From Candidatus Abzuiibacterium crystallinum (GTDB taxonomy: Bacteria; Omnitrophota; Omnitrophia; Omnitrophales; Abzuiibacteriaceae), in NCBI GenBank assembly GCA_002787155.1, contig PCVY01000023.1, forward strand, positions 6,828 to 70,827: a stretch of 64,000 nucleotides of DNA, read 5' to 3'. Every line of letters starts with the position of its first letter. The first letter of the stretch is position 1. Under the pieces are notes generated by a model that was given only the letters and a program-made list of their open reading frames with translations, did not search any database and was not told where the DNA came from. Positions 19,941 to 52,800 of the stretch are shown here, in pieces. The translations under genes were made by a program, and so were the position numbers.

Positions 19941-19956
19941 ATCGAAGGGCTCAGGG

Positions 19957-21445: not shown

Positions 21446-21454
21446 ATTATTCAC

Positions 21455-23320: not shown

Positions 23321-23334
23321 ACACAGGACAACAG

Positions 23335-23946: not shown

Positions 23947-23955
23947 GCAGATACC

Positions 23956-31800: not shown

Positions 31801-34800
31801 CCGGGAAGCAGCCTGCCATACCATGCGAGCTCTGTGAATCCAAATGCTATTTTGGATTCCCTTAAGCTTCCCGGTGAGTTAGGCATTGTTCAAGAGGTTT
31901 ATAGCGCGGTACCAGGTACAACGGTGCCAGGTTCACAGAACCCGGCACCGGCTGTACCTGGTACCGGAATTGGTTTCAAAGTTAATCAACTGGTCATCCT
32001 CGTGCAAAATGCCCACGCCAATTATGATTCAGAGTCAAACGTCCGCAAAATCATCCAGTTCTTCCAAGAGCACTATCAATTAGGACTTGTTTTACTGGAA
32101 GGCGGGGAAGGCAAGTTAGACCCGCTTTTTTTTAAATCTTTTCCCGATGGCAAAATAAAAGAAAAACTGCTGGATCAATATTTAAAACATGGGGATTTAC
32201 AAGGCGGTGAAGCAGCAGCCATTTTGAATCATTCAAACAACCCAACGAGTTATTGGGGCATTGAAGATGAAACTTTGTACCAGCAAAACAAAGCGGCCTT
32301 CTTAAAAGCCATTGTTCAAACGGATCAAATCTTAAAACAGCTTACTCAAAAAGAAGCCGCACTCGAGGAAAACATTGCTTCATTGCCTGAATCATCACAA
32401 ACCTTTTACAAGGCTTGGCAGGCTTTTCATGCGGATGAGATGAATTTGCTGGAATACGTGAAAACGTTAGCTGAGCATACATCGGGTACCGGTTCTGTTG
32501 ACAGTGTCATTCCCGCTCGTCTTTGGCGGGAATCTACTGTGATCGGTGCTCTTGTGCGCTCATTTCCCGAACTTGCCAAATTGTTGGAAGTAGAGAAAGG
32601 CGAGCAAGCCCTCCAAAAAAGCGAAATTGACATGACCGTCAACCAACTGTTGAAAGAATTTCAATCAACTGCGCTGCCGGCGCTGTCAGTCGAATCACAG
32701 AAAGAATGGGGCCAGCGGATCCAGGATTATCAAACCGGCCGGCTCGGCGTGGGTTTTTTGATCAAACAGCTTGAAAGTTTTCTTACCATTCCCGATGTTC
32801 TAAAACCTGCTATTCAGCACGCCCAAACCATTTCTTCCGTCCGGGGAACAGAAATATTCCATGAACTTGAGCATTTAGAGAATGCTGTTCGCGATCAATT
32901 GCCGGGGCGTGAGCGCCTTCATCAAGTTAACGAACTGCATCTCTTGAAACGGTTTGCGCGTTTAGAAATTACACATGAAGAGTGGAAGGTCATTGCGAGC
33001 GCAGCGAAGCAATCTCAAGACCAAGGATTGCTTCGGTCATTTCATTCCCTCGCAATGACAGAAATGCTTAAGAACCATTTCACTTTCTACCAACTCGCAC
33101 TCAAGCGTGACGGCATTTTATCCGGCCGCATTCTCGAAATCATGCGCCGTGAATCTCAAAAAGTTTCGCTCGTGGTGACCGGCGGTTTTCATGAAAGCGG
33201 TATCAAAGAGCGCCTCCGGGCAAACGGCACCGCTTATGTTTTGATTTCTCCTGCGATTCAGGAAGTCGGATCAAACGAGGCTTACCTCAATGCCATGCAC
33301 GACAAGCGTTCTTTTATGAAATATTTTCAAGGCAGTTATTGGGATGCTTTGGCAAAGGATTACATGCAGCAATCGTCAGCGGCTGCGGGTCCGCAGGAAG
33401 AAAAGTTTATTTTTAAGCAGTGGCGCGATCAACTCATCCAAAACACGCTGCAGGAGGGCAGAATCACGCAGGCAACGCGTTACACGCGCTATTTGGATTC
33501 ATTTTTACAAACCGAGGGAAAACCAGCGGATGACAAAGTTGGCAGAAAAACTCAATTAGAAGGTGCTTTCGAAAGTTTCCTTTCAACTTATTTTAAACAG
33601 CATCAAGCTGATTTGAATGCCAAGCTTGATCATTTTGCGGCAGGTTTCAAAAATATGCTCACACAGGGCACCTTCACGCAAGGGGCGGTCGAAGCCTTGT
33701 TGCGTCAAACACAAGTCCTGCAAACGGCTCAACTCGCACCGGATCTCGCTTTGATTCCGGCCTGGAACCAATTTCATTTAAGTGAAGCAACGATTGAAAC
33801 ACTGCCTGATATCAACCAACCTCTTTGGCTCGAGCACAAGCAAAAATCCGAACTCAGGAGTGAAGAGGTAGACTCTGATTATTGGTATGCTTATGGTGAG
33901 GAATTCCTTATTTTGATGGAAGAGGTGGGGTACCGGATAGATGAAACTGACCTTGAAGGTGATATAACTCTGGAGGTAGAGACAGTATCAGACGATCGCT
34001 TTCCTAAAGATTTTAGCAAATTAGCTAAAAGTGTTCCCGAATCGGACCTCACACGTTTACGCGACACATATATCCATATTCTAAAGAATGCCATTGGGAA
34101 AAGTCGAACACTTGAGGAGATAGTTGAAGGCTTGAGCACTTTAATATTAAGGCAGGCAGGAATTCGATTAAATGACAGAAAATTAATTGAAGCCATTACT
34201 GATATTTTACTAACCTATAAAGAAAAAGGGGTGACGGGACCCACCCTGCAGCTGCGCCACGTTTATCTATTTCCAAGATATGGTGATGTGAATGAAATCA
34301 TTCAATTACTGGCCAACCATCGAGGGAAACGCGGAACCTTGAGCCAAACCCAACGGCAACTGATTGCACAGCAACTCGAAAACATGAAAGAGCAATGGCA
34401 AGCAAATTACGAAAGAGCTCAAGCCGAAAAAACCGAAGAACCTAAGGTTGATGGTCAACCCAAAACCGGTGAATCGCTTTGGCTGGAGGGTCAACCAAAA
34501 CCCGAACTCAGAAACGCAAAAGATTATACTCAGATGAGTGTCAAAGAATTGCTTGTAGAACTTCAATCAACTCGAAGTCAAAGTAGTCAAGTCAATTTTA
34601 AAATACTTAGGATTACCAGCGAGCTGGAGCAGCGCTCAGAGAAGATGTTAGACAGCGAGATAGTGGCGACTATCAATGCTTTACTTTCTGCATTGATGTT
34701 AATTGAGCCATCCAGCGAGGATGCGCTTCACGCTCACACTTCATTGAGGGCGGTGTTAGAACGATTGATAGAGGAAGTCTCTCAAGATGAGCTTGTTTCT

Positions 34801-37800
34801 ATAATCCCTGTTTTACATACAACACTTGAACAAATTCACGGAACGAGCAGTCAAGCCAATATGGCCAGAGTAACCATTACACGAATATTGGAAAAACTCT
34901 CGAAAAAGGTTCCTCTCCCTGCGTTGGCCAGTATTCAGAATGCCTTACTTTTAGCGCTCAAATTGACCGAAGGTTCAGATATTGATACAAGTCACACCAG
35001 AAATAACATAGCTCATTGCTTGGCTTTGGTCACACTGCGTTATTATCAGGTTATTCATTTGACTGATAATAGGTTACCCTTCATCAGTTTAGAAAAACTT
35101 TTGTCAATGGTAAGTTCCGGTCCGGATCGTATTTCACTTTTTCCTATTTATGGGGATCTTGAAGTGATTGGTCAAATCCTGCAATCTCAAGACCAGACAA
35201 ACATGATACAACAACTGAATGCTTACCGGGAACAATTGATGGCACAGTATCAAAGGGAACAGAGATCAGGGATCAGGGGACAGGGAACAGGGAACAGCTT
35301 GCCGGATCATGATCCGCTTTGGACAGCGGGGGTTGCCGGCGGCGTGAATGCGGGAGCAGGAGCTGACCGAGCAGAATTAAGAAACAAAAACTATTCCCAA
35401 ATGACAGCAGACGAACTGCTGCAAGCGCTCAAGTCTGTTCAAGGGACGAATGAAGCGTCGACGGATACTAGACGAGCTCTTTCAAATGCGCTGAATGCTG
35501 CTTTCAGAAGAATGAATCAAGAAGAACTACCCGCCATTTTTCAGGACTCGCTCGCCGCGATCAAAGAAATTGGTGAAAGTGATGAGCGCACTCAAGCTAG
35601 AGATTGGATTGCCATGCCACTCTTTGCCCTCATCCAAAAGATTGACGAGGATCAGCTTGCTTTCGTCTTTGAAAATCTGATAGCTGTTCTAAGAGAAATA
35701 AAAGGATCGAGTCATGCGGCGATTCAAGTACGATTCAGCATCATACAAAATTTAATCTTGATTGTGCACCGCCGTCATCATCGATCTTACACAAGCCCCG
35801 GGGATAAACTCGCTCAGGCGCTTCACGTCCTTTTCTCAGCTGCTTCTTCAAAAGTCTGGGTTTTTGAAACGTATGGCAGTTTACATGCGTTGGATCAAAT
35901 CTTTGAATCCAAAGATGACAAAACAATCATTGCAAAACTGAGCGCTTACAGGGAACAATTAATCGCACTGTCTCTAAGGGAAGAAGCGCCGCGGGTCAAG
36001 GGTCAAGAGCAGCAAGACACGGGCGGCGGATCAGGGGACACGGATCAAAATGATTCCATCTGGGCAGCCACTGTCTTGGGGCCTGCGAATGTGAGCGCCT
36101 CTATCAAAATTCATTCATCACGGTCTGAATTACGCATGAAACGCCGTTTGGATCCTTTAGATCAACTCTTGAATGATCTTAAGTCACTCAAAGGTTCGGG
36201 TGATACCACAAACGGCATCAGGGCAGATCTTGCGGATGCCCTGACAACATTGGGCAGAAAATTAACCGAATCTCAATTATTTCTTATCGTTGATCCCATC
36301 ATTACACAATTAGAACAAATTGAAGGATCACGATATACGGCCAATCGGGCAAAACTGGCCATTACCTCATTCATTAATATGGCAGCATCGCGCCTTTCGC
36401 CTACTCAACTGGGCGGTTTGGTTAAGCCATTATTTAACCAAATTGTGTTCAAACGTGAACTGGAAGAATTGACTTCAAACATACCAGTTTCATTTGGCGA
36501 CAGTTTGCTGGAAGTTGTCAGAGAAATCGATCAAACCCAATTACAGGAAGTGGCACGTTTACTGTTTGATTATTTAACAAATCTTCCGGATGACTTGGAA
36601 TACACAAATCTAAGTCTACGTTCTATTTGCCGGGCTTTGACAATGGTATTTAAACGTATCGATACCTTCCCATGGTCGGAAGCAGTTGCTGCGTTTAAAA
36701 CATTACACAGAAACACTGAGCAGACCCGAACATTCTACCCAGCCTTTCCATGGATTTCAGATGTTTTAGCCATGGCGCTCCTCAGAATGCACCAGATTGA
36801 AATTGAAAAAGGGAGGGACAGCCTTTTTTCTGCGCTTTCCCGTCTTTTGGAGTTTCATAAGGACGACACGGTTCTTTTTCTGCGTCATGGAGATTTTAAC
36901 GAAGTTAATTCCATCCTCCAGTCTCACGCGGATCGTTCTACCAAAACCGCGCAACTCAATCATTACCGCGAACAATTACTGGCCTTACATCAAAGGGAAC
37001 AGGGAGCAGGGAGCAGGGAACAGGGAACTCCGCCACACAGCGTCGGGCGGATCCGTCCTCCGGCGGAAGGGATCAGGTCACAGGATACGGATCACGAACT
37101 CTGGCTCAGCGGACCGGTGGGGGCAGGAGCAGTTGGTGTTGGCGCAGCAGTGTTGAATACCAAATCGGAGCTCCGAACTCATGGAGATGATGAATATGAT
37201 GTCATGGGTTTTGAGTCAAAATATTGGAAAATGGATTTAAACGAGTTACTCGATGAACTTTGGTTCATCTTATGGTTCAACGAAGAAGGGTGGGGAAAAA
37301 GTTTTGATAGGAACACCATTATTGAAATTACCGATCATATTCAAAGGAAAAGTAAGGAAGCCGATCAAGATGAACTTGTTCCTGCCGCCCGGCGGCTTTT
37401 TGATGCTTTGGAAAAAACGGTGAAGTATTTCAATCGTGACACGGCGGCACCGCACTTGGCGGTTGCCAGAGCGCTTGCGGCCGTTCATTGGAAGATTCAT
37501 GGTTTCAATACTTCGGAATGGTCAAACGAGTTATTTTTGACGCTCGAAGATATTTTTGTAATTGCCATCGGTGAGAAATCACTTTTCTTAAGTTACAGCA
37601 GCCCGGCTGCCATTAAGCAAATTCTTGAGCTCAAAGATCAAAATGCCATGATTTACCAACTCAAAGCGCTGCGCGAACAAATTCTTGCCGCCTATCAAAG
37701 AGAACAGGGAACAGGGGACTCCGCCGCACATCGTCGGGCGGATCCGTCCTCCGGCGGAAGGGAGCAGGAACCGCGGGACACGGGATCACATGAGCCTCTT

Positions 37801-40800
37801 TGGACTGCAGGGGTAGGCGCCGGCGTTCTGCTATCGGCCAAATCAGAATTACGCGTGCAATTTTTTCAGATTGCTTTAACAAAGCTCGTTGACTTTGCAA
37901 GACAAAACGCATCTCTTTTCTTTCGATATGTCATCAACCGTCAGAAGGTTGTTGAGCGGGATGATGACGATTATGAAAAAATGAGTACCGATGAACTATT
38001 AGACGACCTTCAATTTATTCACCTGGCTTATGCTTTTCGCCATGTCCCGCCTCAGCGCAGGTGGGATATTTCACTTTCGCTTGGGTGGCGCGTGCAAAAA
38101 ATGACAAAACCCGAACTTCTCGACTTTTCAAGAAAACTTCTCACTATCTTAACAACCACAAAAGGTTCTAGTGAAAACGCACATCAAATAAGAAGTGCCG
38201 CTGCCGGAGTCTTTAAGGAAGTGGTTAGAATTATTCCAGATACCGAATTATTAGCTATCTTTAAGGCGCTTTTTTCAGCATTAAAAATAACGCACCAGTC
38301 GCTTAGCGTTGCCTTTAGTCACGCCGCCAGGATTGAAGAGCGTGCAATCACAGACACTTTTGAAATAATACGTAAAAGAATGCCTAAAGCTGATTTTTCG
38401 CAAGTGGTTGACGAATACTTGGCAGTGTTGGAAGAAATAAAGAATCGAAAATTTCTTTTCTGGGAAAAAACAATACAACACCAAACTCTCCATTTAATGG
38501 GGGAAGCAGTCTATTCCTTTCCGGAAGCTCAACTGAGGCGAACGGCTAAAGAATTGATCGCTATTTTACGAGCTCTCAAGGACCAGGGCGGAAATGTGAA
38601 CGAAATTCGAATTTTATTACTTTATGTTTTTCGGAACATCGTCGAGCGTTTACCCGAAGCTGATCTGGGCGGCTATGTGACTGAATTACTCTCAACGTTT
38701 GATGCTATCAAAGGATCGAACGAACACGCTGGAGAAGCAAAAGGAGACATAGGTCATATTTTGTCGAAAGCAGCTGAACGGATGCCGCCCTCAGAACTAC
38801 CTCATTTTGCGGATGAAGCATTGATCAGGCTAGAGTCAACGCCAAATCGGGGAAATCAAGCTTATCAGACAACGCGAGCGATGGCGGAGGCTCTTTGGGG
38901 TTTTGCAAAGGCAGTTGATCCCGAAAAGGCGGATCCGCAAAAGATGTCTAAAATCATGAATCTACTTCTTGAAAAATTAAAGCTGATCAAAGGAAAAGGT
39001 GACAATGAGGAGTGGGCCAAAATACATATCTTGCTCGCTTTAGGAGCCATAGCTAAAAAAATCCCACATCAAGAGCTTCCCGGGCTTTCCAATGCAATTC
39101 TTTCAGAGTTAACGCATTATGAGTTTAATGACGGACTCAAAGGCCGTTTAATTGATGTGCTGATAGCAATTGCAGACAGCATTGATCTTGCTGAGCTGCC
39201 AAAGATATCAAACGAGCTTCTGGATGTTTTAAAAGAGATGGGAGAATTAAATGATGACGAAGATGGAGGGTATCAAACACTCGTCACTATAGCTGTATTT
39301 TTTGAACAGATCACACCCAAAATCTCAGAAACAGAACTCCCTCGTATTTCAAAAGCATTTCTCACTGCACTCGCCGCCATCAAAGGATCTAGTTACAATC
39401 TAGACCGTGTGAGAAGGTTTGTCGGAGACGTGCTGGCTTTGATATCACTGAGGATCAATCACTTACCATTGGATAATAAGCCATTAATTGAACAGCTTCA
39501 AAAGTTCTTCTCGCTTGCTCCGGCTAGTCATTCACTTTTTCCGATGTACGGCGACCTAAATGAAATTGGGCATATTTTAAAGCTTGAAGATCACAAGCAA
39601 GTAATAGCCCAACTCAATGCCTACCAGGCACAATTACTGGCACGGTATCAAAGGGAACAGGGAACTCCGCCACACAGCGTCGGGCGGATCCGTCCTCCGG
39701 CGGAAGGGAACAGGGAACAGGGGACGGGGATCAGGTCACAAGACACGGATCACGATCTCTGGCTCAGCGGACCGGTAGGGGCGGGTATCCGGGCAGAATT
39801 AAGAAACAAAGACTATTCCAAAATGACGATCGATGAATTGTTACAGGCACTTCAAATGGGAAGGTCTGATCAAGAAGCTCAGGAACTTAAAATTGGAATT
39901 GCCAAAGTTTTAAAAGAATCAGCTAAAACCATGCAACCAACGGAACTTCAGCATCTTTCTAATAGGCTCCTTTTACTGCTAGAGGCAGCACCGGCAAAGG
40001 GGAGGGCGGGCCGGCAAACCATTCAAGCAGTTGCAGATATTTATCAAGTGATTGCGATGAAAATTGACCCTGCCGAATTGCCTAAGATTTTAGAGGCACT
40101 GCTTACCGCCTCAAAACTACCGCTCAAATATGACGTTGACGGCAGAGATGCTAAAAGGTTCATTACGATTGCATTGACAAAAGTTGCTGAACGAATCCCA
40201 GAAGAAAAACTTCCTACCATATTAAATTATGCGCTTCTTGAATTAAGCCATTATGATTTGGATGATCAATTAACATACAGTTTAATTTTTGTGCTCGATG
40301 CAGTTGCTAACCGAATCCAACCAACCGAACTGCCAAGAATTTTGCATGCCTTACTCGATAAGCTTAAAACAATCAAATCATTAGATGATAAAGATGAAGA
40401 GGATCTCATTTGGCAGGTAGTGATGATAGCAGCATTTACCTTTAAATCGATTGCCGCCAGAATGAGCGCAACGGAACTACCGGCCATTTCGAAAAGACTT
40501 CTCGAAATACGCTCGCTTGCCAAAAGAGATAGCACTCAGGCGGAAAAAACAAGAGACGCTCTCTTAGCGCCTTTTCCTGCCATTGCTGCCCGTATAGACA
40601 AAAAAGAATTACCTAACTTATTTGATCAATTTGTTGACATTTTGAAAAATACACACCGAACAGACGCATCGCCGGGATCAAGTTCTAACATGAGATTGCG
40701 TTCGCGCAAAGTATTGGCAATTATTTTTCTCAGGAACCATCAATTACCTCTGGATGATGAAACCTTGGCCAAAGCGCTTGAGAACCTCTTGGGCATTCAC

Positions 40801-43800
40801 TCTCCTACCGATTCACTTTTTCCCATTTATGGTGAGTTCTCCGAAATCGACCGCATTTTACGATTGCCAGGCCGTGAACAAATGATTGCTCAGCTCACTA
40901 TTTACCGGAAACAATTAATCGCACAGTCTCAAAGGGATCAGGGAACAGGGAACAGGGAACAGGGAACAGGGGACGGGGAACAGGGGACGGGGATCAGGTC
41001 ACAAGACACAGAATCAAATGATACGCTTTGGGTAATTAGTCCTGCTGTCGAACGCTCCGAACTCAGAACCAAAGATTATTCCCGCATGAGCGTTGATGAA
41101 TTGTTAAACGAACTTCAGTCAATCAAAGGATCAACTATTGATGTCAATTGGGCAAGAGAGGCCATTGCCGATACCCTCACAGAAATATTAAAAAGAATTG
41201 ATCCAACCAAACTTCCCGCTATTTCACAAGCCTTGTTGACCGCTTTAAAAGAAATCAAAGGATTTGCTGATGATGCTAATCGGACAAGATGGGCCATTAC
41301 CTTTTCCTTCCCAGAAATATTGCAAAGAATTGATCCAACCGAACTCCCCGCTATTTCACAAGCGTTGTTGATCACTTTAAAAGAAATCAAAGGATTATCT
41401 AATGCGACCAATGAGGCAAGACGGACCATTACCTTTTCCTTCCCAGAAATATTGCAAAGAATTGATCCAACCGAACTCCCCGCTATTTCACAAGCCTTGT
41501 TGATCGCTTTAAAAGAAATCGAAGGATCAACTGATGCTGCCAATCAGGCAAGATGGGTTATTGCCGATGCCTTCAGAGAAATGCCAAAAAGAATTGATAA
41601 GTCTGAACTTCCCGCTATTTCACAAACCCTCTTAGCTGCTTTAAAAGAAATCAAAGGATCAACTATTGGTGCCAATCAGGCAAGAGAAGCTATTGGCAAA
41701 ACCCTAGCTGTTATTGTCTTTCGTCATCATCAAATCCCTGTCACCGATGAGACAAATGATTTATTGAGCGCTCTTCAAGATGTCTTTACACTTGAAATGA
41801 ACGGTGTTTCCATCTATCCCATAGAAAACCATCATCCATTGAACAACCCGGACAATCCCATTCATCAAATCTTTAAACAACATGATCAAGATTACGCACA
41901 AATCATGAGCCAGCTCAATCGTTACAGGGAACAATTGAGCGCACAGCATCAAAGGGATCAGGGAACAGGGAACAGGGAACAGGGGACGGGGATCAGGTCA
42001 CAAGACACGGATCACGATCTCTGGCTCAGCGGACCGGTAGGGGTGGGTGCTGGTTTAACAAAAGCCGGTCGACAGTCCGCAGACCATGATAAAAGGGTAG
42101 AACTGCGAAATGAATCACCCAACCTAGAAGACTTGAGTCCAACCGATGAGGCCCGTGAAGTTGAAGTGGTCATTAAGGCAATTCATGCATTGACAGATTC
42201 GGTTTGGAAGCAACCGCTGCCCCGTCTCAATACCCGATCGAACGCAGGAGCTGAACTTGCTTCATTAGTGAACCAGTGCGTTCACTTGATACGGGATACA
42301 AAGATGACGGTTAACGAGCAAATACAATTGGTGAAGGCGTTCCTGCATTTGCTCGAGTCTTTCGAGTCCTTATACTTGAAGACACTGGTTGGAAGTGCGA
42401 GTCATTTGCAACTGCATTGGCTGCTTAGGCACGTCATGACGGCAATACCGTTCGGGCAAATCACGCCTATCCGTCATGAGATCTATTTATCCCAAGAAAT
42501 AGCCAGAAGGCAGGGTCCTTCCCGTAACACAACCTTGCATATAGATTTTCTAAGCGAAATATTAATCATGCTTGCATTGAAGCAAGCAGGTTTTAAAGGA
42601 ACGTGGGATACGTTAGCCGTTGATAAAATATACAACACAAACGTGTGGAAAGAATTGGGTGATTTCTATTCGGGAACTGTCAGGGTGCGGAGGGAAGGTA
42701 TCGGATTCCTGCATCAATATGCTGATGATGCTGAAATTAACAAGATTATAAATATCTGGCTGGATGATAGCGGCAATCTTGATCACACGCGTGCAGAACA
42801 AGTCATCACTCAACTTAAGCTCTATATCGATCAGTTGCTTCATCAAATTAAAATAAAAGCAAATGAAGAACCCGGGACCGATGATGCTGAACAATCAGCT
42901 GACTCTCGTCCGGAAGATATTTGGCTGCGGGGCTCGTTCCGCCCTCAAGGCGGATTGGGGCCTTCAAAATCTGAATTGCGCACGGCCAAGTCAAAATCTG
43001 ACCTTGGAAAGCGCTTAACCCAATTAGCAAAAGATTTAGAAGCCGAGGTTGAAGCGCGGCAGATAAAAGGATTGGCAAAGCAATTGCTTGAGAATAAAAG
43101 CACCCGCACAAAAACAGATGCCCAAATCGAATCAGAGATCAAAGAAAAAGCGGCGGATGATGCCGCTATGGACCGGTTAATTGCTCATTTAAAAATTGCG
43201 CGCGCTCTTAAGGAAGCGGGAAATGATTTTTTGAGGGATTATGAACAAACGCATTATCTCAAATTAGCTAAAATTCAGCAGCCAAACGCTGTTTTGTGGG
43301 GTCTGCGCTTTCTGGATCTTGATGATATCCAGGATCCGGAAATTCGCCGGTTGATGGGGAAACTTCAGTCACTTTTGATGGTGAACGAGTTCTTTGGGCG
43401 TTCTAGCGCCGCCTTTGTCGAAAGCGTGCTGACGGAATTTATTGTCAACACCGTGATCGGAGATGATTTTGGCATGACGGAACTCTTGACGTCTCTTGAT
43501 CCTAACCAAAACCTGATCGAATTGTTTCAAGATTGGGGCGTTAACGTTCAGCTCAAATACAGCCGGGAGCACACGGGCATTCAAGCGCTCTATGACATAG
43601 CACGTCTTTATTCCAAGGTGTTCCCGGAGTTCAACAATAATGCACGTACCGGTTTTATCACGCATGATTTCAAGGAAATGCTGAGGGAGCCTGAAGGGGA
43701 TGCCGATCGAAATCAGCAGGCACGCGCGTTGGCAAGGGGAGGAGCCGCGCAAGCACTCAATCTGTTAACCATTCGCTTGCTGGGTTTGCCAGCGGGGCGC

Positions 43801-46800
43801 ACCATGGAACAACAGTGGCAGGAACTTTTTAAAATCACCGAAAAAGGAATTCCCAATCTTCAGAAACCGGAACATTTAAACGGCGCGCGCGCCGAAGATA
43901 TTTTGGCGGGTCTGGCAGAAATTTCCAAGACGTCTCAAGGACAACTCAAAGAAGTGGTGGCTGAGCTCATCCAGGGACGGTTTAAATTGCTGGTGAATCA
44001 CGATGTCGAACGGTTTAAACAAATTGGCATCATCATTGGTTTTACGGGGATTGACGGTTTTGCAAAGATTCCGTTCGGCCGCTTGCGGGAAAAATATCAT
44101 CTGACCGAAGGCAGTGAAGAGGAAGGCCGGCTGCTCAAAATCGTTGCCCAAATTTCCAGAACAGCCCGGGAAGGGACAGGCGGCCTCATTGAAGAAGTGT
44201 TTGATCTTTACAGCCAAGAAGCCGGCGAACATTTGGACGATTTGAACAAACTGCTTCAGGCATTTAGTTACTTTGTGCGGCTTGTGAATTTTCACCACGA
44301 TTATGAACGGCTTGTCTTAGAAGGTGATATCGGCAAGGTGAACAATGAAGCGCTCTTTGTCAGCTTGCGGGATTTGAAGCGCACACTTGATATCGTGAAG
44401 AAAAACGATGCCAAAGGGATGGACATTCGCGATGCCATTGCTTCTGCTGTCAAGCGCCGCTATTACAACCGCTTGAGCATCGAAGATCGGGGTATTGTTC
44501 GTGATTTAATGGCGAGACACCGGCTGATTCATGAAAACGATCTCCTGGATTTTGATTATGTGATTGATGGTTTCAAAAACGGCAGTTCCCGAATTCGTAT
44601 CTATCGCAAACGTAAATCAGGCCCGGCGCGGTTTAAACGAACGGAAGTCAAGCCCGGCGAATATAAGATGGAATTAATTCAAGAAAGCGTGGGAAAACCC
44701 GAACTGCTGCTCGAGATTCCGCTGGCTCAGCCGCTTGCCAACGTTGACCCGAAAATTATTTTAAACGAAACGACCCGCCGTAACCTGGCCAATATTCTGG
44801 ATGCATTGGAAGTGGAGGAGGGAAAGCGCTTTAATCCGGTGCTCGAATTTGGCGTGACTTCAGGCGGCAAAAGTACGACGGCAGCGTTGGTTGCCAAGAT
44901 TCTGGGCGTTGGTTTTACGCGCATTCAAATCAATGAACGCACCGATGAATTTGACCTTTTCGGATCGTTTCAGCCTTATGAAATCAATATCACGTTAGAA
45001 GAAGCCATCCAGCTTTTGCAGGAAGCGCTGGCCACGAACAATTATAACGGTCTTGAGGATGTGTTTAGTCGTTTAAAGTCGGATCAAACGGGACAATTTT
45101 GGGAAAATTATTTCAATGCTCAAGAACGACAGACAATCGAGCTTGGAAAGGACAGCCGTTATCCCCAGCGTTCGGTATTGGAGCGTCAACGAGCCGCCAT
45201 TCGTGATAAATTAAAACAATTGGCGGATAAACAGTTAGAACTTGCTCAATCGCTCAAAAGTTTAAGCGCTCAGGAACGCCGCCTCATTGATTCCAAGACA
45301 GATAACCCTGTCTGGCAAGCGCAGCTTGCCCAGCTGCGCCGGGAAGAAGCGGAAGGTTTTGATCAGCTGAACCGCATCAAATCCATTGCATTTATGTTAA
45401 ACCACGAGGTGGGCCTTCGGTATAAGGAAGGGCGTTTTCTCACGGCTTACAAGCGCGGAGATCTCATTCTGCTTGATGAAGTGAATTTAGCCAACGAAGA
45501 AATGCTGGGCGTGCTTTATCAATTACTCACTTTGGGTTATTTGGAATATAACGGCAAAGTGATCGAACCGCCTTTGGGCAAACAAGCCCGCATTCTAGCC
45601 ACGGCCAATCCCTCCGGTTATGCGGGCCGCAGACGCATGAGCGAAGCTTTTATGAACCGTTTTGAAATTATCCATGTTGATGAAATGACGGATGAGGAAA
45701 TGCGCGATATCGTGGTTGGGCAAATGATGAAAGATCTCATCGCCTCAGGCCGCTATACAGCCGGGGATTTTGAACAAAACTCGGATGAAGCGCCGGAAGT
45801 ATGGGATAAAAAAATCAACAAGATTTTACAGGAAGAATATGGTATTACGCGCGAAAGCACTCGATTGTTAGCTGGAGTTCAGCGAAAATTTAACAGCATT
45901 TTGGCGACGGGCAGTTTTCCGCGCATGGGATCCGACTCCAATTATGTCTTCACGCTTCGGAATCTTCAACGGATCGCCGGCGATGTGAAAGAACGCAAAG
46001 AAAATGGCGAACGCATCACCCTTGAAACCTGGATTCGGGAAGCGTACGGCGAATATGCCGGCGTCCTCATGCGGCCCAGCACACAGCCTTCCTACACCGC
46101 AGAGCGGCTTAAGCCTGATGAATCATTGCCGGCGGAACATCATTTATGGGATGATCCGGATTACAAAACCATTCGGCGGGTATTTACGACTTTCATGGGT
46201 GAATTGATTGCCGGAGAAAGTCATCAAAGTTACGATGACGCTTTTGACGAACTCATTCGCCGGCATTTTGAAACCATTCCGTATGTCTATGACTCAACCG
46301 CCCATGCCATCAAGCTGGACGGTCTTCTTACCCAAGGTGCTGAGCCAAACGATCAAAACCCCATTGAACCTTTAATCGAAGTGGGGTCAACCAAAATGGT
46401 TCAAAGGCAAATTTTAAAAGGCATTCGCCGGAATATCCCAACGCTCCTTGTCGGTCAATCCGGCGGCGGTAAAACAGAAATCATCGGCGACTTAGTCAAT
46501 CGCCTTGGCCGTCAATATATCAGCGTGTCTTTGGGCGATGCCACACTGGAAAGTCTGATCGGCACCATGGAATACAACCGAATGGAAAAACGTTTTGTTT
46601 ATCGGCGGGGTGTGCTCGTCAAAGCCATGGAAGAAGGTTCGGTTTTGGTGCTGGAAGAACTCAACATGGCTAAATCGGGCATATTAGAAATTTTGAATGA
46701 ATATTTCGATGACGGAACGTTTACCAACCCGTTTACCCTAAAACAGGTAGCGGTACACCGTGACTTCCGGTTGTTCGCTACCATGAACCCGATTCAGGGT

Positions 46801-49800
46801 GAGACGGGAGAAAATTTAGGCCGCGTGAGTTTGTCGCCCGCTCTCAGAAACCGCTTTCGGGAAATTTGGGTGCCGCACAAGAAAACGGACGCTGAAATGA
46901 ACGAAATTTTAATCGGAAAATTCAAGCAATTGGGTGTTGAAAAAATCGAAAAAGCAACAGGCGCCAAAATCATCGGCTTTTTCCGTGCCTATGAAGAGGC
47001 TTTTAAAGATCAAGCTGATCCGGTGTATTACACCAGTCTGCGCGATTTGAATCGGATTGCCAAAATCATGGCTTATTTAATCAATGAGCTCGACATGCAT
47101 GAGTCGGATGCATTGGCGCGCGCCATTGACCGCGTTTACCGTTTACGCATGCAAAACAGCGGCGCCTTGGCAGTGGTCGATCAAATTCTCATTGAGCTTA
47201 AAATCAAGATCCCGGGTGCCGGTCAATTGTCGTACCAGTCTCGGAATGGCGTCTTGGAAGTGCGCGATGGTCAAACACTGGTTGCCAAATTAGACCTTTC
47301 TTTGATACAGGCCAAGCTTCGCGACCGCATCCGCGGAGAACTCAGTGCTGATACGGATCCGGCAGAACTTGAAGCACTGACAGAGAAGCGTCTAAAAACT
47401 CTCTTGGATGAAGCTGTCTTGGTAGAAAATCCGCGCACGAAGGCTCATCTGCTGGATTTAATGGAAGCCGTCACGCTTCCTTCCGGCGAAGTGAAAAAAG
47501 GAAAATTTAACCCGATTTTTCTTTTGGGTGAGACCGCCGGCGGGAAAAGCTCCCTTACCAAATATTTGGCACTCCATCTTTTGGGCCAAAACTATACGCG
47601 CATTCAATTCAACGAACGCACGGATGAGTTCGACCTTTTTGGCGCCTATGAACCGCGCGAGCTTCACATGGGTCTGGACCGCGCTTTTCGGATTGTTCAA
47701 AATGCGATGGAACAAGGGGAGTGGGTCAAAATCAAGAAAGCCTTGAAGCTTTGGCAAACGGGGGCATTGACCGAAGATGATCTGTCCGAACTTGAAATGA
47801 TTGAGAAGGTGGAAGAGCGCATTCGCACGGTAGATTTAGAGGCCTCTCAACAGATCACAAAGATCTTAAAGGATGCTTCCGAGGAAGATGTCTTAGGTGA
47901 CCCCGGTCAGAAACGTGAAGCCGAACGCAAACTCAAAACCATTGCGTTTTTGATTGAAAATAACATGTTAAATGTCGAGCTGGAATTTCGCGAAGGCAGG
48001 TTATTACAGGCGATCAGGCGCGGCGATGTGGTGGTGCTGGATGAAATGAACCTGGCGAATGAAGAAGCGCTCGCTGTTTTATATCAACTCCTGACTCTGG
48101 GTTATGTGGAGTATTACCACAAAGATACCCGGCAAGTCGAACGCATTACCCCGGCACCGGGCTTTAAACTCATGGCGACCGCAAACCCCGCCTCATATGC
48201 GGGTCGTCATCGGTTGAGTGAAGCCTTAATGAACCGGTTTGAGATTCATTATGTGATGAACATGACACCCCAAGAAATGACCGAGATTCTGCGCGGTGAA
48301 AATAGTCATGAACCAGTGTTCGAACGCGATCAGTCATTTCAGACCACTGTTGAGAAACTGACATTGCTTCAAGAAAATATCAATGAAGCGCTCCGAAACG
48401 GTCAATTTCCCGAAGTGAGTTCCGACCAAGTGCAAGGCTATTTATTTACGCTTCGCAATTTGAAACGTGTTTTACGGAATACAGCAGAACTCTTACGCCA
48501 AGGCGACAGTTCGCCGCCATCTGAGTCACTCATTCGACAAGCCTACCTTGAATACTTAGGCGTCCTCGGACGTTCAGACGCCTCCATCAAAACGCTGCAG
48601 TCTCTTTTCAAAGCGCCAAAACAATTTCCCCAATTTAACCCTGATTTTCGAATTTCCTTTGAGTCAATGACTATGCCCAACGGTCAATCGGGTATTTTAG
48701 CGGGTGGTTTCAAAGTCGTGAGACGTTTTTATGAAGATGAGGCAGAAGGCGTTTCGCACGATGCAGATGTCATTGAAGAGCTTGAAGAGGGTGCAACGAC
48801 TAATTTGATCCGCCAAGCAATTGCGAAAGGACTGTTAGATTCTCGGATGGCGGTTTTGCTGGTGGGGCAAAGCGGCGGGGGTAAAACAGAAATGATCGGT
48901 GATTTAGCAAGGCGTCTGGGCTGGCGCTACCGCTCCGTTTCGCTTGGTAATGCCACCCTGGAGAGTTTAGTCGGCGGTTATGCCATGGACCACGAAACAA
49001 AAAAATTCCGTTATATCCCCGGGATTTTAATCCAGGCCATGCGCGAAGGCGCCATTTTGGTTTTGGAAGAAATGAATATGGCACCGTCCGGACTATTAGA
49101 AATTCTGAATGAATATTTTGACGAAAGTACCTTTACCAATCCCATGACGGGACAGAAAGAAAAAATTCATCCCAATTTTCGGTTATTTGCCACCATGAAT
49201 CCGGAAAAAGGTGTGACGAGTACCAGCGAAGGCCGTGTCGGCTTGTCGCCCGCTCTTCGCAGCCGTTTCTCAGAAGTATGGGTGCCCCATATACGGACGC
49301 AGGCGGAAACAGAGAGAATTATTCGTAAGAAATTCAGCAATCGAGGGGTAAGCCATGTACCGCCCAAAGTGACGGAAGATATTTACCGCGTCTATGACCA
49401 ATACCGCCGGTTTGTTGAAGAAGGCAAAATTGGCCAAGAAAGCAACGAAGGCTATTACGTCGGTTTGCGTGATGTGGTGAAAATAATTGACCTGGTAGCG
49501 CAGGATCAATCGCGCGGCATTCCAATGGAAGAAGCGCTGCGTTTTGCCTTCAAACGAATTTTTTATTTACGCCTCAATAGCGATGCGGACCGCAAAACAG
49601 TTCAAGAAGAGATTCTAAAAACATACGACATGAGCAAGACGGAATACCAATGGAAAAGTGTGAATGACCATTGGGTGGTTAAGCGCACTCAGTGGCAAAC
49701 GGCAGAAGTTCCGAAGGCACTTTTGAAGGAAAAAGGATTTATTTTAACGCCGCAAAGCCAAGAAGAGCTCGCGCTTCTGCTAGAGGCAATGCAGCGCGGC

Positions 49801-52800
49801 GTGACTATTCAGGGCAAAGCAGCCGCGCGTTCCTTTAATCCCATGATGCTGTTTGGTGAGACTTCCGGAGGAAAGTCTACCTTGGTTGAAATTGCCGCCA
49901 GTATTTTCCGGACCCCCTTTACCCGTATTCAAATGAATCAACGAACCGATGAATACGATTTGTTGGGCAGTTACCATCCTGTTGAAGTGAAGTTGACATT
50001 TGAACAAGCCTATGAAGTCGTTCAATCGGTTATTCGCCAAAATCAAACACTGCGTACCGCACAAGTGCTGCGGGCTTTACACATCACGGATGATCACGTG
50101 AAATCGGTTTTGCGCATAAACCCTGATCAAACGATGCCCTTAGAGCAGCTTCAAAAGCGCTTTTTAGAAGAACATGTTTTGGCAAATGCACGGCAGGGAA
50201 ATCCCAAGAGCATTGAACAAATGAAAGATATCGGCGCACTCCTCTTGAACGGCGTTGCCGGCATTGAACTTATTTTCCGTGAAGGCATGCTGCTTCAGGC
50301 CATGGGCGACCGTGAAACCGGTCGACCGGGTCAAGTGGTTCTGTTGGATGAATTTAATTTAGCCAATGAAGAAGCAATCGGCATTCTTTATCAACTGCTA
50401 ACGCTGGGATATATCGAATTTCAAGGGCGGAAAATCTTTCCCGGTAAAGGGTTTCAATTAATTGTGAGCGGCAACCCTTCCCGCTACTCGGGCCGAAGGC
50501 GGATGAGTGAAGCTTTTATGAACCGCTTTGAGATCTTGAACCGTCCTTCAATGACCAAAGAGGAAATGGTTAAAATCTTGACGGAGAAATATGCTTTAGA
50601 AGCATCGGGGATTTCGAAATCCGGCATCGAAGCCCTGGTTGATTTGCAGTTCGACATCGAAGAAACGGCTCAGTCCATCGGTTTTGACTTTTTCAACCAA
50701 GATAACACGTACCGATTTAGTTTGCGGAACTTGGAACGTATTGTGCAGGATTTGAAAAAACGGATGGAAGTGGAGCCCGAACGTTCCGTGCAAGTCATGT
50801 TGCGCGAAGAGGCCTATTTAGAATATGCCGGTTTGCTTTCACAGTCCACCGATGAGGATGATCCGAAGAAGAATAATTTGAAAGTCTTAGCAGGTCTTTT
50901 TAAGAAACACTTCAATTGGGAGATCGATCCGGAAACGGTTTTACCCGAATTCAAGAAGCAGACGCTTGTTAAAGGAGAAGACGAATGGATTTCCTTAAAC
51001 GGGGTGCGTGTGAGAAAACTCTCACCGCATCAAATGTTAGAGAGTTTGCAGTTGGAATTAAATGAAGAAATCAGAAGCGGCGCCTTGGCAGATGATGATG
51101 GCGGAAAATTAGTGCTTTTAACAGAGGCGAATCTTGTGCGCATTTTAGCGCAGGTAGAAAAACGGCTCGCCAGTCATGATCCGCTTTCAAGAAAAGAAAT
51201 CATGCGCGAGGAAGCGCGCACGGAATATCTTAAGATGCTGGGGGAATCGCCTCGTTTGGTCAAGCGCTTAGACGAACTGATTAACCAGCATTTTTATACT
51301 CAAGCCGAGCGCATCGAGCCTTTGGTAGAACTCAAATCAACACGTTTGGTGCGCATGCAAATTTTAAAAGGCTTCCGTGACGGCGGCGTGATTCGTTCTC
51401 GTGATACGGAAGGACGGGAGGTTTTGAATCATCGTTCGCAGCCCGTGCTTTTAGTCGGACAATCGGGCGGCGGTAAAACCGAAGAAATTGCCGATGCGGC
51501 CAGGGAGCTCAACCGGCCTTATATTTCGGTGGCGTTGGGTGCGGCGACCATTGAATCGTTAATCGGCAGCTTTGTGCTGAATAGCGAAACGGGCACTTTT
51601 GAATTTCGAAAAGGGATTATGGTGCGCGCGATGGAAGAAGGGAGCGCGCTCACGCTCGAAGAGCTCAATATGGCGGAAAGCAGCATTATCGAAGTGCTGA
51701 ATGAATATTTTGATCGAGGAACGATGACGATTCAAGAGCGGAATGTTCCCATCCGCATTCATCCCAACTTCCGCTTGTTTGCGACAATGAATCCGACCGA
51801 AGGCAGAACCGGCAGAAATGCGGGACGTATCCCGCTGTCTCCTGCGCTGAGAAGCCGGTTTCGGGAAGTCTGGGTCCGCAATGAACGCAATAAGGGCGAA
51901 CAATACCGCCTCATGTTAGGCGGGATTCACGCGCTTGTTTCTTCTTTAATTACAAGAGGTCTGCCGGAAGATAGGCCGGATGAATTGGAAAACTTAGAGC
52001 TTGATTGGACACGCCGAAGATTGGCTGAGACCGCCGGGCAGCAGGTGCAATTCGCAAGCAGCGAGTCATTGTCCGCCGCATTAAAGGCGGGTCCGTCCAT
52101 TACACTGCCTCGCCATGACAGTTCAGCTATCCGCATGGCCAAAGCATCTGAAGACGGAACGCCCAAAGAAAAACCCACATCAAAGGAATGGGAGCGTATG
52201 GCTATCAATGAAAGAAAACGCATTTATGAAGAACAGTTTCGGATTGTGAGCCACGGCATCATGAACATCATGTCTTCCGATGAAGCCATCGAGTTAGGCC
52301 TATCAAGAGATGGAAGCCATCATTGGGCGTATGCACCTAGTATCAATACATTAATTTATAACAGCCGGGAAATCATGACTTTGAGCTTGGATGCGTTAAT
52401 CGGTGTCGGCGTTCATGAATCGATGCACCGTTACGGCACCCGGTATACGTCTCTTTTTGCAGACTTTTTAGATGCACAGAGTTTGGCGGGCAGTTTTTTT
52501 AATATTTTAGAAGACGGACGCATTGAAAATTGGGCACGTTATCGATTCCGGGGCGTGGAGCGGCCGCTGCGCACACTGAATGATGAAATTATTTTTGATT
52601 TTGAAGATGATAATGAAATGGTTGAGCGCATGATTAAAACTTCTAAAGATGGTAAAGACATAGGTCATGCCGGTGCCATCGGTAATTTCTTTCTTTATCT
52701 CGCAAAACGCGGATCAGATCCGGGCGCCGGCAAAGTCATCGAAAAGTTCTTAAAAGCGTTTGAAGAAAGAGATCCGGCTTTGAAAGAGGATATAGAAAAT

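What the first reader, a model, noticed from the sequence alone, without database searches (positions are those of the whole stretch)
40934..40996. Heptanucleotide (GGGAACA)n tandem repeats inside coding sequence: frameshift-prone tracts in the linker cassettes
The Gly/Thr-rich part of most linkers is encoded by a 7-nt periodic array (GGGAACA, GGGGACA, GGGATCA, GAGATCA). The longest has 9 units with 4 perfect copies at 40941-40968. Because 7 is not a multiple of 3, the peptide is read in all three phases in rotation ('QGTGNRE'). A gain or loss of one unit by slipped-strand mispairing would frameshift and truncate the giant protein at that hinge. About ten such arrays with different unit counts suggest ongoing expansion and contraction. 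This is the architecture of phase-variable contingency loci, and could produce truncated variants of the mega-protein.
Basis: partly seen in the sequence, partly recalled or inferred. Interest (0 to 1): 0.65.

Follow-up and report, generated by a model that had tools for sequence, protein, structure and literature searches.

The report
Seven-base repeats in giant-protein hinges
An 11,000-residue protein gene of an uncultured Omnitrophota bacterium has short 7-base tandem repeats in its inter-domain hinges; they look like tolerated replication-slippage microsatellites kept in frame by selection, and no evidence shows that they work as on/off switches.

Summary
At 40934-40996 there are nine 7-nt units (GGGAACA and variants, four of them perfect). 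They lie in frame in a giant ORF (31702 to beyond 64000) and are read in three rotating phases as QGTGNRE. Ten more arrays occupy the same position in a recurring linker cassette, all on the sense strand, and there are none in the 31.7 kb upstream.

The contingency-locus interpretation is only partly supported.

In its favour:
- A change of one unit at any array would place a stop 5-73 codons downstream.
- One paralogous linker carries a fixed unit difference that is not a multiple of three, compensated downstream. The same 42-nt insert is read in two frames.

Against it:
- Perfect tracts are short: 4.7 units at the focal array and 3.7 or fewer elsewhere.
- Clean arrays have 5 or 8 units, so they differ by three units.
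- Five arrays are identical in the window and two other assemblies of one population.
- All seven long contigs carry an intact ORF of 11,094-11,497 aa. Their lengths differ by the 44-aa unit of the 132-nt repeat.

Every array starts at the conserved Q-R-E/D-Q codons (CAAAGGGAACAG), which already contain one unit. The encoded segment is predicted to be disordered. A distant homologue has about 24 such arrays with unrelated units, and seven homologous genes from five other assemblies have none.

Best reading: lineage-specific heptanucleotide microsatellites in permissive hinges.

The parts
31702..64000 (+). Giant ORF, running off the window end. Full length is 11,094-11,497 aa in other contigs of the same population. 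It has an N-terminal signal-like hydrophobic segment, alpha-helical repeat modules, six AAA_5 (dynein/midasin-type) ATPase domains at about 44.7-52.0 kb, and an HExxH plus DxSxS region at about 52.4-53.6 kb.
   Evidence: Stop-free frame. Pfam AAA_5 at E = 6e-110 with 8 stretches. Product lengths. Hydropathy. The HExxH and DxSxS motifs were read by eye, with no Pfam hit.
40934..40996 (+). Focal heptanucleotide array of nine units. The perfectly periodic core is 40939-40971 (33 nt, 4.7 units). It encodes DQGTGNREQGTGDGEQGTGI(R).
40930..40941 (+). Seed: the codons CAA AGG GAT CAG (Q-R-D-Q) that end the conserved helix. CAAAGGGAWCAG already contains one repeat unit, and every array begins at codon position 1 of this CAG.
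40741..41127 (+). Focal copy of the linker cassette. Its order is ..SLFPxYGD.., helix QL.xYRxQLxAxxQR[ED]Q, the 7-nt array, SQDT..LW, a short G/A/V-rich stretch, SELR, then the start of the next module. There are 17 copies in the window.
   Evidence: AlphaFold2 gives helix to residue 68, then coil with pLDDT below 50 across the array-encoded part (residues 69-117), then helix.
35254..35297 (+). Paralogous array, five units from the anchor, with tail CAGCTTGCC.
36994..37028 (+). Paralogous array, four units, followed by the 42-nt insert.
37702..37718 (+). Paralogous array, two units, followed by the 42-nt insert read in a different frame.
39705..39735 (+). Paralogous array. One unit precedes the 42-nt insert and about 4.4 units follow it.
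41953..41997 (+). Paralogous array, five units from the anchor, with a perfect core of 26 nt. The focal array is this one plus three units.
56200..56262 (+). Paralogous array, five units, degenerate.
57538..57581 (+). Paralogous array, five units. Its upstream flank is 95% identical to that of linker 41923, but its downstream flank is only 53% identical.
58471..58536 (+). Paralogous array, eight units. TRF scores a 21-nt period higher than a 7-nt period here.
61444..61488 (+). Paralogous array, five units.
62887..62949 (+). Paralogous array, eight units.
37028..37069 (+). 42-nt insert CTCCGCCRCACAKCGTCGGGCGGATCCGTCCTCCGGCGGAAG, inside the array. Other copies are at 37719-37760 and 39665-39706. 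It starts at codon position 2, 3 and 2 respectively and is read as TPPHSVGRIRPPAEG or as DSAAHRRADPSSGG.
   Evidence: It has no hairpin beyond what shuffles give.
41026..41067 (+). Conserved end of the linker, LW ... SELR. W, E and R are invariant in the 16 aligned cassettes.
41121..41686 (+). 132-nt (44-aa) tandem repeat directly after the focal linker. Similar arrays lie at 56895-57219 and 63227-63761. This is where the assemblies differ, and it is the likely source of the 44-aa length steps between alleles.

Best explanation
The arrays are heptanucleotide microsatellites. They grew by replication slippage inside the disordered hinge of a repeated linker cassette in an Omnitrophota giant protein.

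Proposed steps:
1. Growth is seeded by the codons of the conserved helix end, Q-R-E/D-Q (CAA AGG GAA/T CAG). These codons already contain one unit, AGGGAAC, plus the start of the next.
2. The expansions are tolerated for two reasons. On the sense strand the unit has no stop codon in any phase and encodes only R, E, Q, G, T, G and N. The segment is also an unstructured spacer between helical modules.
3. Selection for an intact 11,000-residue ORF passes only net changes of three units (21 nt, 7 aa), or slips that a nearby second indel puts back in frame. This gives the 5-versus-8 unit pattern and one linker read in another frame.
4. The permissive linkers, with their arrays, also mark the places where duplicated or converted modules are joined.

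Shown: the anatomy, the frame bookkeeping, the seed, the predicted disorder, the stability across assemblies and the lineage-specific distribution. Inferred: slippage as the generating process, and the absence of a regulated switching role.
For: - **Anatomy.** There are 11 arrays, all in one ORF, all on the sense strand and all at the same place in the cassette.
- **Seed.** Every array starts at codon position 1 of the CAG in CAAAGGGAWCAG. Cassettes without that codon string (35974, 42787, 60214) have no such array.
- **Unit counts.** Uninterrupted arrays have 5, 5, 5, 5, 5, 8, 8 and 8 units, all congruent to 2 modulo 3. The distance from array start to the conserved W is always a multiple of three.
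- **Compensated shift.** The 42-nt insert follows 4, 2 and 1 units. It is therefore read in two frames, and the frame is restored before LW.
- **Disorder.** The array-encoded residues are coil with pLDDT below 50 between confident helices.
- **Stability.** Five arrays are identical in the window, GCA_002781965.1 and ERZ27293413. All 7 long contigs have intact ORFs whose lengths differ by 44 aa, or by 8x44+7 aa.
- **Distribution in the family.** A cassette profile finds 29 proteins. One of them, P0015 (locus L161), has 24 arrays of period 7 or 14 and three of period 8, with many unrelated units. Of the 27 mapped, 25 lie within 33 residues of the linker LW motif. In its (GAGCCCT)n arrays, the unit whose phase would read TGA carries CGA instead, or the array ends there (read by eye). 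This points to selection for an open frame. Seven other family genes, from five further assemblies, have only arrays of period 6/9/12/15/18 and a few other non-7 periods.
- **Mutational background.** Heptanucleotide repeats are reported as the most abundant class of long simple-sequence repeats in most prokaryotic genomes, attributed to polymerase slippage (Mrazek et al. 2007, as summarised in PMC4679880). (CAGGGAA)n-type arrays occur in many phyla. Most are not inside a long open frame: only 16 of 121 lie in an open frame of at least 300 aa on the repeat strand. Some are apparently in-frame inserts in ordinary-looking proteins.
Against: - Slippage itself was not observed. No read-level data and no sister strain were available, and the nearest relative of the flanking LysE protein is only 36% identical.
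- The dominance of 7-nt over 3n-nt periods inside a coding region is unusual. It needs a strong lineage-specific mutational bias that I cannot demonstrate outside the gene: the 31.7 kb upstream holds only one weak 7-nt array.
- The same unit in 11 linkers could reflect gene conversion rather than independent seeding.
- A remainder of 7 aa (three units?) in the allele-length differences hints at real array polymorphism, but I could not locate it.
Confidence: 0.6

Rival explanations
1. Contingency locus. Slipped-strand gain or loss of single units at the arrays switches the reading frame at a useful rate. The population would then carry a mix of full-length protein and N-terminal truncations ending at different hinges.
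For: - The unit is not divisible by three and lies in a coding sequence.
- A change of one unit gives a stop within 5-73 codons at all 11 arrays.
- The focal tract (4.7 perfect units) and the 41959 tract (3.7) exceed the 3-unit threshold used for heptanucleotide SSRs in H. influenzae.
- A non-3n unit difference is fixed in one paralogue.
- A proven precedent exists in neuO.
- The mega-genes of relatives are often split into consecutive ORFs, so shorter products may be viable.
Against: - No unit-count difference at five arrays in three assemblies.
- None of 7 long contigs is truncated. In neuO, 66% of genomes are phase-OFF.
- The arrays are short and interrupted, with 68-92% matches.
- They are not at the 5' end.
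- Eleven independent switches would make the full-length state rare.
- The splits in relatives are at in-frame stop codons or homopolymers, not at 7-nt arrays.
- Most family members lack arrays altogether.
Confidence: 0.12
2. Recombination joints. The arrays and the conserved cassette around them serve as homology or microhomology tracts. Modules are duplicated, deleted or converted at these tracts, and this drives the modular growth of the giant gene.
For: - Flank relationships are discordant across the arrays. Linkers 41923 and 57508 are 95% identical in the 150 nt upstream but 53% identical downstream. Linkers 56170 and 61414 are 57% identical upstream and 87% downstream. Linkers 39622 and 41923 are 59% and 73%.
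- One long internal duplication ends exactly at an array: 41704-41996 matches 57289-57581 at 93.5%.
- The alleles differ in module-scale length.
Against: - Breakpoints would survive preferentially in any permissive linker, with or without arrays.
- Family members without arrays are just as modular.
- The arrays offer only 20-60 nt of imperfect homology.
Confidence: 0.15
3. Signal at the nucleic-acid level. The G-runs (GGGN4)n on the sense strand form G-quadruplexes in the mRNA or the non-template DNA. These would pause transcription or translation at domain boundaries of a 33-kb gene.
For: All 11 canonical G4 motifs in the 64-kb window are on the + strand inside the giant gene, and 10 of them are in the arrays. 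There are none elsewhere on either strand. The array has no competing Watson-Crick structure.
Against: The G4 motif follows automatically from the unit sequence. The homologue with the most arrays (L161) uses units such as AGACCAC, CGCCATC and GTACGGA, which cannot form G4. Seven family genes have no arrays. Only arrays with four or more G-runs qualify.
Confidence: 0.05
4. Assembly or sequencing artefact, or a pseudogene in which the repeats are no longer translated.
For: The sequence comes from metagenome-assembled data. Repeats are prone to mis-assembly, and the assemblies do disagree in the neighbouring 132-nt repeat.
Against: The same array sequences appear in independent assemblies from NCBI and ENA. 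An open frame of more than 10,766 codons cannot persist by chance. Contigs from NCBI, ENA, JGI and Logan carry the locus.
Confidence: 0.02

Closest known systems
neuO of E. coli K1 (CUS-3 prophage): (AAGACTC)n heptanucleotide repeat in the coding sequence
   Same: A 7-nt tandem repeat lies inside an ORF. The full-length protein is made only when the unit count keeps the frame, that is, in steps of three units. Three units encode one heptapeptide read in three phases (PMC13001214).
   Different: neuO has one long perfect tract (3-53 units, mode 20) at the 5' end. Its count varies among strains and within cultures, and 66% of genomes are OFF. Here there are 11 short, interrupted arrays (4.7 perfect units at most) deep in the ORF, with no variation seen and 7 of 7 contigs ON.
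Haemophilus influenzae hmw1A/hmw2A heptanucleotide SSRs
   Same: They are heptanucleotide SSRs. One of them, (AATTTTG)14, lies 3.5 kb inside a 7.3-kb adhesin ORF and is associated with a frameshift (PMC2651432).
   Different: Those tracts have 13-38 perfect units and vary between strains. Most are in promoters.
Prokaryotic long simple-sequence repeats, heptanucleotide class (Mrazek, Guo & Shah 2007), including the TAACTGA repeats of Beggiatoaceae and cyanobacteria and, from my own knowledge, the cyanobacterial STRR heptamers
   Same: These are tandem heptamers generated by slippage, with a sporadic lineage-specific distribution. [quoted passage not shown] (CAGGGAA)n itself is common in Nostocales, Acidobacteriaceae and other groups.
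   Different: Those repeats mostly lie outside long open frames (16 of 121 in my sample lie within one). In this window they are confined to the linkers of one gene.
Omnitrophota giant proteins ('Archaeovorins', West-Roberts et al. 2023 preprint; Omnitrophota complete-genome preprint of 2026)
   Same: The host is Omnitrophota. The ORF exceeds 11,000 aa, with helical repeat modules and AAA_5 domains. A type II secretion / type IV pilus-like cluster lies upstream: PilM_2 and Secretin by Pfam, GspE/F-like ORFs and pseudopilin-like ORFs.
   Different: Term searches of these two papers found no occurrence of 'linker', 'frameshift' or (first paper only) 'heptan'. The recurring linker cassette therefore does not appear to be described there. 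My Pfam scan found no HEAT family at E <= 0.01.

Membership tests
SSR-mediated phase-variable (contingency) locus | Tandem repeat with a unit length not divisible by three (or a homopolymer), inside the ORF or promoter | tested here: met
   7-nt unit in frame in the ORF.
SSR-mediated phase-variable (contingency) locus | Long uninterrupted tract that confers a high slippage rate | tested here: inconclusive
   The focal perfect tract is 33 nt (4.7 units), the 41959 tract is 3.7 units, and the other nine are below 3 units. Known heptanucleotide switches have 13-53 units, and the survey threshold is 3 units.
SSR-mediated phase-variable (contingency) locus | Unit number differs between strains or within populations, including out-of-frame (OFF) alleles | tested here: not met
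   Five arrays are identical in the window and two other assemblies. All 7 long contigs have an intact ORF. Power is limited because this is one population, consensus sequences only, and six arrays were not compared.
SSR-mediated phase-variable (contingency) locus | Repeat placed so that a frameshift abolishes the product (near the 5' end) or alters promoter spacing | tested here: not met
   The arrays lie 1,187-10,397 codons into the ORF. A shift would leave a long N-terminal fragment.
SSR-mediated phase-variable (contingency) locus | Reversible ON/OFF switching measured in culture or in reads | not testable with these tools
   No reads and no culture.
In-frame coding heptanucleotide repeat translated as a heptapeptide repeat (neuO type) | 7-nt DNA period with a 7-aa peptide period, and all three phases used | tested here: met
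   The peptide is QGTGNRE/QGTGDGE. A 7-aa periodicity is detected in three linkers.
In-frame coding heptanucleotide repeat translated as a heptapeptide repeat (neuO type) | Viable alleles differ by multiples of three units | tested here: met
   Paralogous clean arrays have 5 or 8 units. The one exception is compensated downstream.
Omnitrophota giant protein ('Archaeovorin'-type) | Host in the phylum Omnitrophota | tested here: met
   The flanking protein is identical to a protein of 'Candidatus Omnitrophica bacterium CG11_big_fil_rev_8_21...'. The contig is GCA_002781965.1.
Omnitrophota giant protein ('Archaeovorin'-type) | Very long ORF with HEAT-type repeat modules and AAA_5 among the recurrent domains | tested here: inconclusive
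   The ORF is 11,094-11,497 aa and AAA_5 is strongly matched. The helical 44-aa repeats give no Pfam HEAT hit at E <= 0.01.
Omnitrophota giant protein ('Archaeovorin'-type) | Conserved type II secretion-like locus upstream | tested here: met
   PilM_2, Secretin and PEGA by precomputed Pfam. GspE/F-like and pseudopilin-like ORFs at 9.7-17.5 kb were read from the translations. The feature is described.
G-quadruplex-forming sequence | Four or more runs of at least three G separated by 1-7 nt | tested here: met
   10 arrays match, all on the sense strand. Actual folding was not tested.

The most novel reading that the evidence does not exclude
The hinges could be built as mutational breakpoints. 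Occasional one-unit slips at any of the 11 arrays would generate, within a population of a host-dependent Omnitrophota bacterium, a ladder of truncated N-terminal products of its secreted or surface mega-protein. Three-unit slips and array-mediated recombination would vary hinge length and module number. This would be a multi-site contingency system acting on protein length rather than on ON/OFF state.
Probability: 0.1. Interest if true: 0.7.

Novelty: new variant of a known kind. Interest (0 to 1): 0.4.

Why it matters
Giant genes of Omnitrophota are newly recognised, and how they grow and remain intact is an open question. This locus shows three things:
- The inter-module hinges accept microsatellites whose unit is not a multiple of three. 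The same DNA is read in different frames in different copies.
- The frame is policed in 21-nt quanta.
- The hinges coincide with the junctions of duplicated segments.

Together these give a concrete, testable picture of how disordered linkers arise from slippage and how an 11,000-codon frame survives it. If read-level data did show single-unit heterogeneity, this would be the first multi-site coding-repeat switch reported outside host-associated pathogens. On present evidence it is an instructive but ordinary microsatellite phenomenon.

Tried and rejected
- **Homologues of the module next to the focal linker.** A search with 438 aa found nothing at E <= 1e-5. The N-terminal domain found only relatives of 43% identity or less, on 2-4 kb contigs plus one weaker hit on a 13-kb contig. 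Sister strains are not available by that route.
- **Genome-collection scan.** It was useful only as background on how widespread (CAGGGAA)n is.
- **Metagenome scan.** A scan with the linker-array junction returned 33 loci, none homologous to the gene.
- **LysE neighbour as a handle for sister species.** The next relative is 36% identical.
- **Hairpin or mobile-element reading of the 42-nt insert.** Folding is no better than shuffles, with z about 0.
- **Rfam.** No family matched in the whole window.
- **Transmembrane reading of the G/A/V-rich stretch after LW.** Mean hydropathy is 1.26 or less and lengths are 7-26 aa. No 19-residue window in any linker reaches 1.6.
- **Detecting heptad periodicity at protein level across the family.** This was too insensitive for arrays of 3-5 units, so DNA was fetched instead.
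- **Artefact or pseudogene.** Rejected.
Full report
**1. What is at the coordinates**

Positions 40934-40996 read GGGATCA, GGGAACA x4, GGGGACG, GGGAACA, GGGGACG, GGGATCA. Tandem Repeats Finder reports 40933-40998 with period 7, 9.4 copies and 83% matches.

The tract lies inside a single stop-free frame on the + strand. The frame runs from 31699 (first ATG at 31702) through the end of the window, more than 10,766 codons. In frame it reads RDQGTGNREQGTGDGEQGTGIRSQ, so the three phases of the unit rotate to give a heptapeptide period.

Ten more arrays of period 7, 14 or 21 are found, at 35254, 36994, 37702, 39705, 41953, 56200, 57538, 58471, 61444 and 62887. All are in this ORF and on this strand. 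A degenerate four-unit pattern matches eight times against none in 100 shuffles. Perfect 7-periodic tracts of at least 2.5 units number eight in the ORF and zero in the 31.7 kb upstream.

**2. The gene and the organism**

The ORF contains six dynein/midasin-type AAA_5 domains (Pfam E = 6e-110, eight stretches). It has an N-terminal hydrophobic segment and long alpha-helical repeat regions that Pfam does not name.

The LysE-family protein just upstream is identical to a protein of 'Candidatus Omnitrophica bacterium CG11_big_fil_rev_8_21...'. Window positions 20823-41425 are 100% identical to GCA_002781965.1 contig PFGO01000018.1.

Upstream lies a type II secretion / type IV pilus-like cluster. 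PilM_2, Secretin and PEGA are given by precomputed Pfam, and GspE/F-like and pseudopilin-like ORFs appear. This arrangement is the one described for the giant genes of Omnitrophota. Term searches of that paper and of a 2026 survey of long Omnitrophota proteins found no occurrence of 'linker' or 'frameshift', and none of 'heptan' in the first.

**3. The arrays sit in a recurring linker cassette**

Seventeen times in the window the protein shows the same boundary. The order is:
- ..SLFPxYGD..;
- a helix, QLNAYREQLxAQYQR(E/D)Q;
- a polar stretch;
- SQDTxxxLW;
- a short G/A/V-rich stretch;
- SELR.

In eleven copies the polar stretch is the 7-nt array. AlphaFold2 on the focal cassette, with the 16 cassettes as the alignment, gives confident helices up to residue 68. 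Residues 69-117 are coil, with pLDDT below 50 over the array-encoded part, and then another helix follows. The arrays therefore encode a disordered hinge.

**4. Frame bookkeeping**

Every array begins at codon position 1 of the CAG that ends the conserved Q-R-E/D-Q. That motif is always written CAA AGG GAA/T CAG, a string that already contains one unit (AGGGAAC) and the start of the next. Cassettes that lack this codon string have no array.

Counted from that anchor, the uninterrupted arrays have 5, 5, 5, 5, 5, 8, 8 and 8 units. All are congruent to 2 modulo 3, and they then join the tail CAGGTCA.. or CAGCTTG.. at codon position 3. The focal array equals the 41953 array plus three units.

Three linkers carry a 42-nt insert within the array. 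It follows 4, 2 and 1 units, so it starts at codon position 2, 3 and 2. It is translated as TPPHSVGRIRPPAEG in two linkers and as DSAAHRRADPSSGG in the third. In all three the distance from array start to the conserved W is a multiple of three (102, 96 and 102 nt).

This is a fixed unit difference that is not a multiple of three, compensated downstream. It shows that homology in the hinge is at the DNA level, not the peptide level.

**5. Testing the contingency-locus idea**

In favour:
- A gain or loss of one unit at any array meets a stop 5-73 codons later. For the focal array this is 8 codons after a gain and 13 after a loss, which would give a product of about 3,100 aa lacking the ATPase core.
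- Proven precedents exist. neuO has an (AAGACTC)n tract in the 5' coding region and is ON only when n is divisible by three. H. influenzae has an (AATTTTG)14 tract inside hmw1A.

Against:
- The perfect tracts are short: 33 nt (4.7 units) at the focal array, 26 nt at 41959 and 20 nt or less elsewhere. The known switches have 3-53 and 13-38 units.
- The arrays at 35254, 36994, 37702, 39705 and 40933 are identical in the window, in GCA_002781965.1 and in ENA ERZ27293413. The ENA contig has a single mismatch over the 20.5 kb before 41364 and no gaps over the 20.6 kb aligned.
- Repeating the look-up with a small flank showed each contig separately. The giant gene's product is 11,094, 11,138, 11,453 or 11,497 aa in the seven contigs of 50-200 kb. 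The short products (3358, 868, 439 and 88 aa) all end at contig ends. None of the seven is truncated, whereas 66% of neuO genomes are OFF.
- The allele lengths differ by 44 aa, which is one unit of the 132-nt tandem repeat where the assemblies diverge. They also differ by 359 aa = 8x44+7. The remainder of 7 aa would fit a three-unit change, but I could not locate it.

No read-level data were available, so rare slips remain possible.

**6. Relatives**

A profile of the cassette finds 29 proteins among 1.84 billion representatives. I fetched DNA for eight of them, from six other genomes or assemblies.

One gene, P0015 in locus L161, has 24 arrays of period 7 or 14 and three of period 8. The units are many and unrelated, including AGACCAC, CGCCATC, CGGGCAA, GCGCAAC, GTACGGA, GAGCCCT and CACAAGGA. 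Of the 27 arrays mapped, 25 lie within 33 residues of the linker LW motif. In its (GAGCCCT)n arrays, the unit that would be read ..CCC TGA.. reads CGA instead, or the array stops there (by eye). This indicates selection for an open frame.

The other seven genes have no convincing 7-nt arrays. Their short repeats have periods 6, 9, 12, 15 and 18, plus a few other non-7 periods. Heptanucleotide hinges are therefore lineage-specific, found in 2 of 7 genomes. They arose with different units and are not a conserved functional element of the cassette.

This fits the reported general excess of heptanucleotide repeats among long prokaryotic SSRs, attributed to polymerase slippage. A scan of one genome per species shows that (CAGGGAA)n-like arrays are widespread in Nostocales, Acidobacteriaceae, Planctomycetota and other groups. 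Most lie outside long open frames: only 16 of 121 sit inside one. Some appear as in-frame inserts in ordinary-looking proteins.

**7. Other readings**

- **Recombination joints.** Sequence relationships are discordant on the two sides of the arrays. Linkers 41923 and 57508 are 95% identical upstream and 53% downstream. Linkers 56170 and 61414 are 57% and 87%. A 293-nt duplication at 93.5% identity ends exactly at the array. The hinges are thus junctions of duplicated or converted segments. The arrays may assist this, or they may simply mark the only places where junctions are tolerated.
- **G-quadruplexes.** All eleven canonical G4 motifs in the window are sense-strand motifs in the giant gene, and ten lie in the arrays. 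This follows from the unit sequence and is not shared by the units of L161.
- **Other structure.** The insert and the array have no secondary structure beyond shuffles, and Rfam finds nothing.

**8. Verdict**

The arrays are real. They are best explained as slippage-generated heptanucleotide microsatellites, seeded by the QREQ codons, in a disordered and frame-tolerant hinge. Selection for the intact ORF filters changes to 21-nt steps or to compensated shifts. The data available give no support for phase variation, and several features differ from known contingency loci.

Noticed in passing
window 37028-37069, 37719-37760, 39665-39706: An almost identical 42-nt insert (CTCCGCCRCACAKCGTCGGGCGGATCCGTCCTCCGGCGGAAG) lies inside three linker arrays. 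It is translated in two different frames. It has no significant hairpin and its origin is unknown.
   Followed up: partly
window 41121-41686, 56895-57219, 63227-63761: These are 132-nt (44-aa) tandem repeats encoding helical units (..ELPAISQALLxALKEIKGS..). Assemblies diverge here from 41364 on, and the full-length alleles differ by 44 aa. This in-frame repeat, not the 7-nt arrays, is the visible source of length polymorphism.
   Followed up: partly
window, giant gene; product lengths: There are four allele lengths (11,094, 11,138, 11,453 and 11,497 aa) in seven long contigs from different samples. The two size groups differ by 359 aa = 8x44+7. The 7-aa remainder could be a three-unit change in a heptanucleotide array, but it could not be located.
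   Followed up: no
window linkers 41923/57508, 56170/61414, 39622/41923: The upstream and downstream flanks of the arrays have discordant paralogue relationships (95% versus 53%, and 57% versus 87%). The cassettes are mosaics with junctions at or next to the arrays.
   Followed up: partly
window + strand: 35269-35292, 36995-37025, 39706-39729, 40934-40992, 41954-41991, 56215-56239, 57553-57576, 57605-57626, 58507-58530, 61459-61482, 62919-62943: These are the only canonical G-quadruplex motifs in the 64-kb window. All are on the sense strand of the giant gene, and there are none on the other strand.
   Followed up: partly
L161 1001-24232 (JGI 3300077324, Ga0643591_000007): A 7,743-aa homologue has linkers that are mosaics of about 24 different heptanucleotide arrays and three 8-nt arrays. 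In the (GAGCCCT)n arrays a substitution avoids the TGA. An 11,941-aa paralogue lies directly upstream.
   Followed up: partly
L162 about 16263; L168 about 8740; L165/L166 about 14515-14530; L163 about 440-540: In relatives the homologous mega-gene is split into consecutive ORFs. The causes are an in-frame TAA inside an AAA domain, an in-frame TAG, a frameshift at an A6CA9 run, and another frameshift near a G6 run. The protein ending at the TAG (P0011) and the protein ending at the A6CA9 shift (P0012) are each carried, with identical sequence, by three contigs. These could be pseudogenes, sequencing errors, recoding or genuinely split proteins.
   Followed up: partly
window 41026-41067 and 16 other cassettes: The linker end has an invariant W...E.R (LW, then 7-26 G/A/V-rich residues, then SELR). 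It is not hydrophobic enough for a membrane helix. Its role (processing site, docking motif?) is unknown.
   Followed up: partly
window about 52390-52420 and about 53540-53560: An HExxH motif (VHESMHRYG) and a DxSxS motif (IDESGSM) follow the six AAA domains. This suggests a metalloprotease-like region plus a MIDAS/VWA-like region, as in midasin, but Pfam gives no hit for 52000-55398.
   Followed up: no
window 9773-26147: A type II secretion / type IV pilus-like cluster (GspE/F-like, pseudopilin-like, PilM, secretin) lies upstream of the giant gene, as reported for Omnitrophota giant-gene loci.
   Followed up: partly
L055 and L109 (genome scan): (CAGGGAA/CAGGGGT)n arrays appear as apparently in-frame inserts (GNREQGTGN, QGSGVRGQGSG) in ordinary-looking proteins of a Myxococcales MAG and a Chloroflexaceae MAG. 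In L109 the insert sits just upstream of a GPSGAGKS P-loop motif. Function was read from the sequence only, and no family search was run.
   Followed up: no
window 20073-20095: This is the only 7-nt array outside the giant gene: (TTCCTGG)3.3, in the intergenic region upstream of the ParA-like gene at 20390.
   Followed up: no
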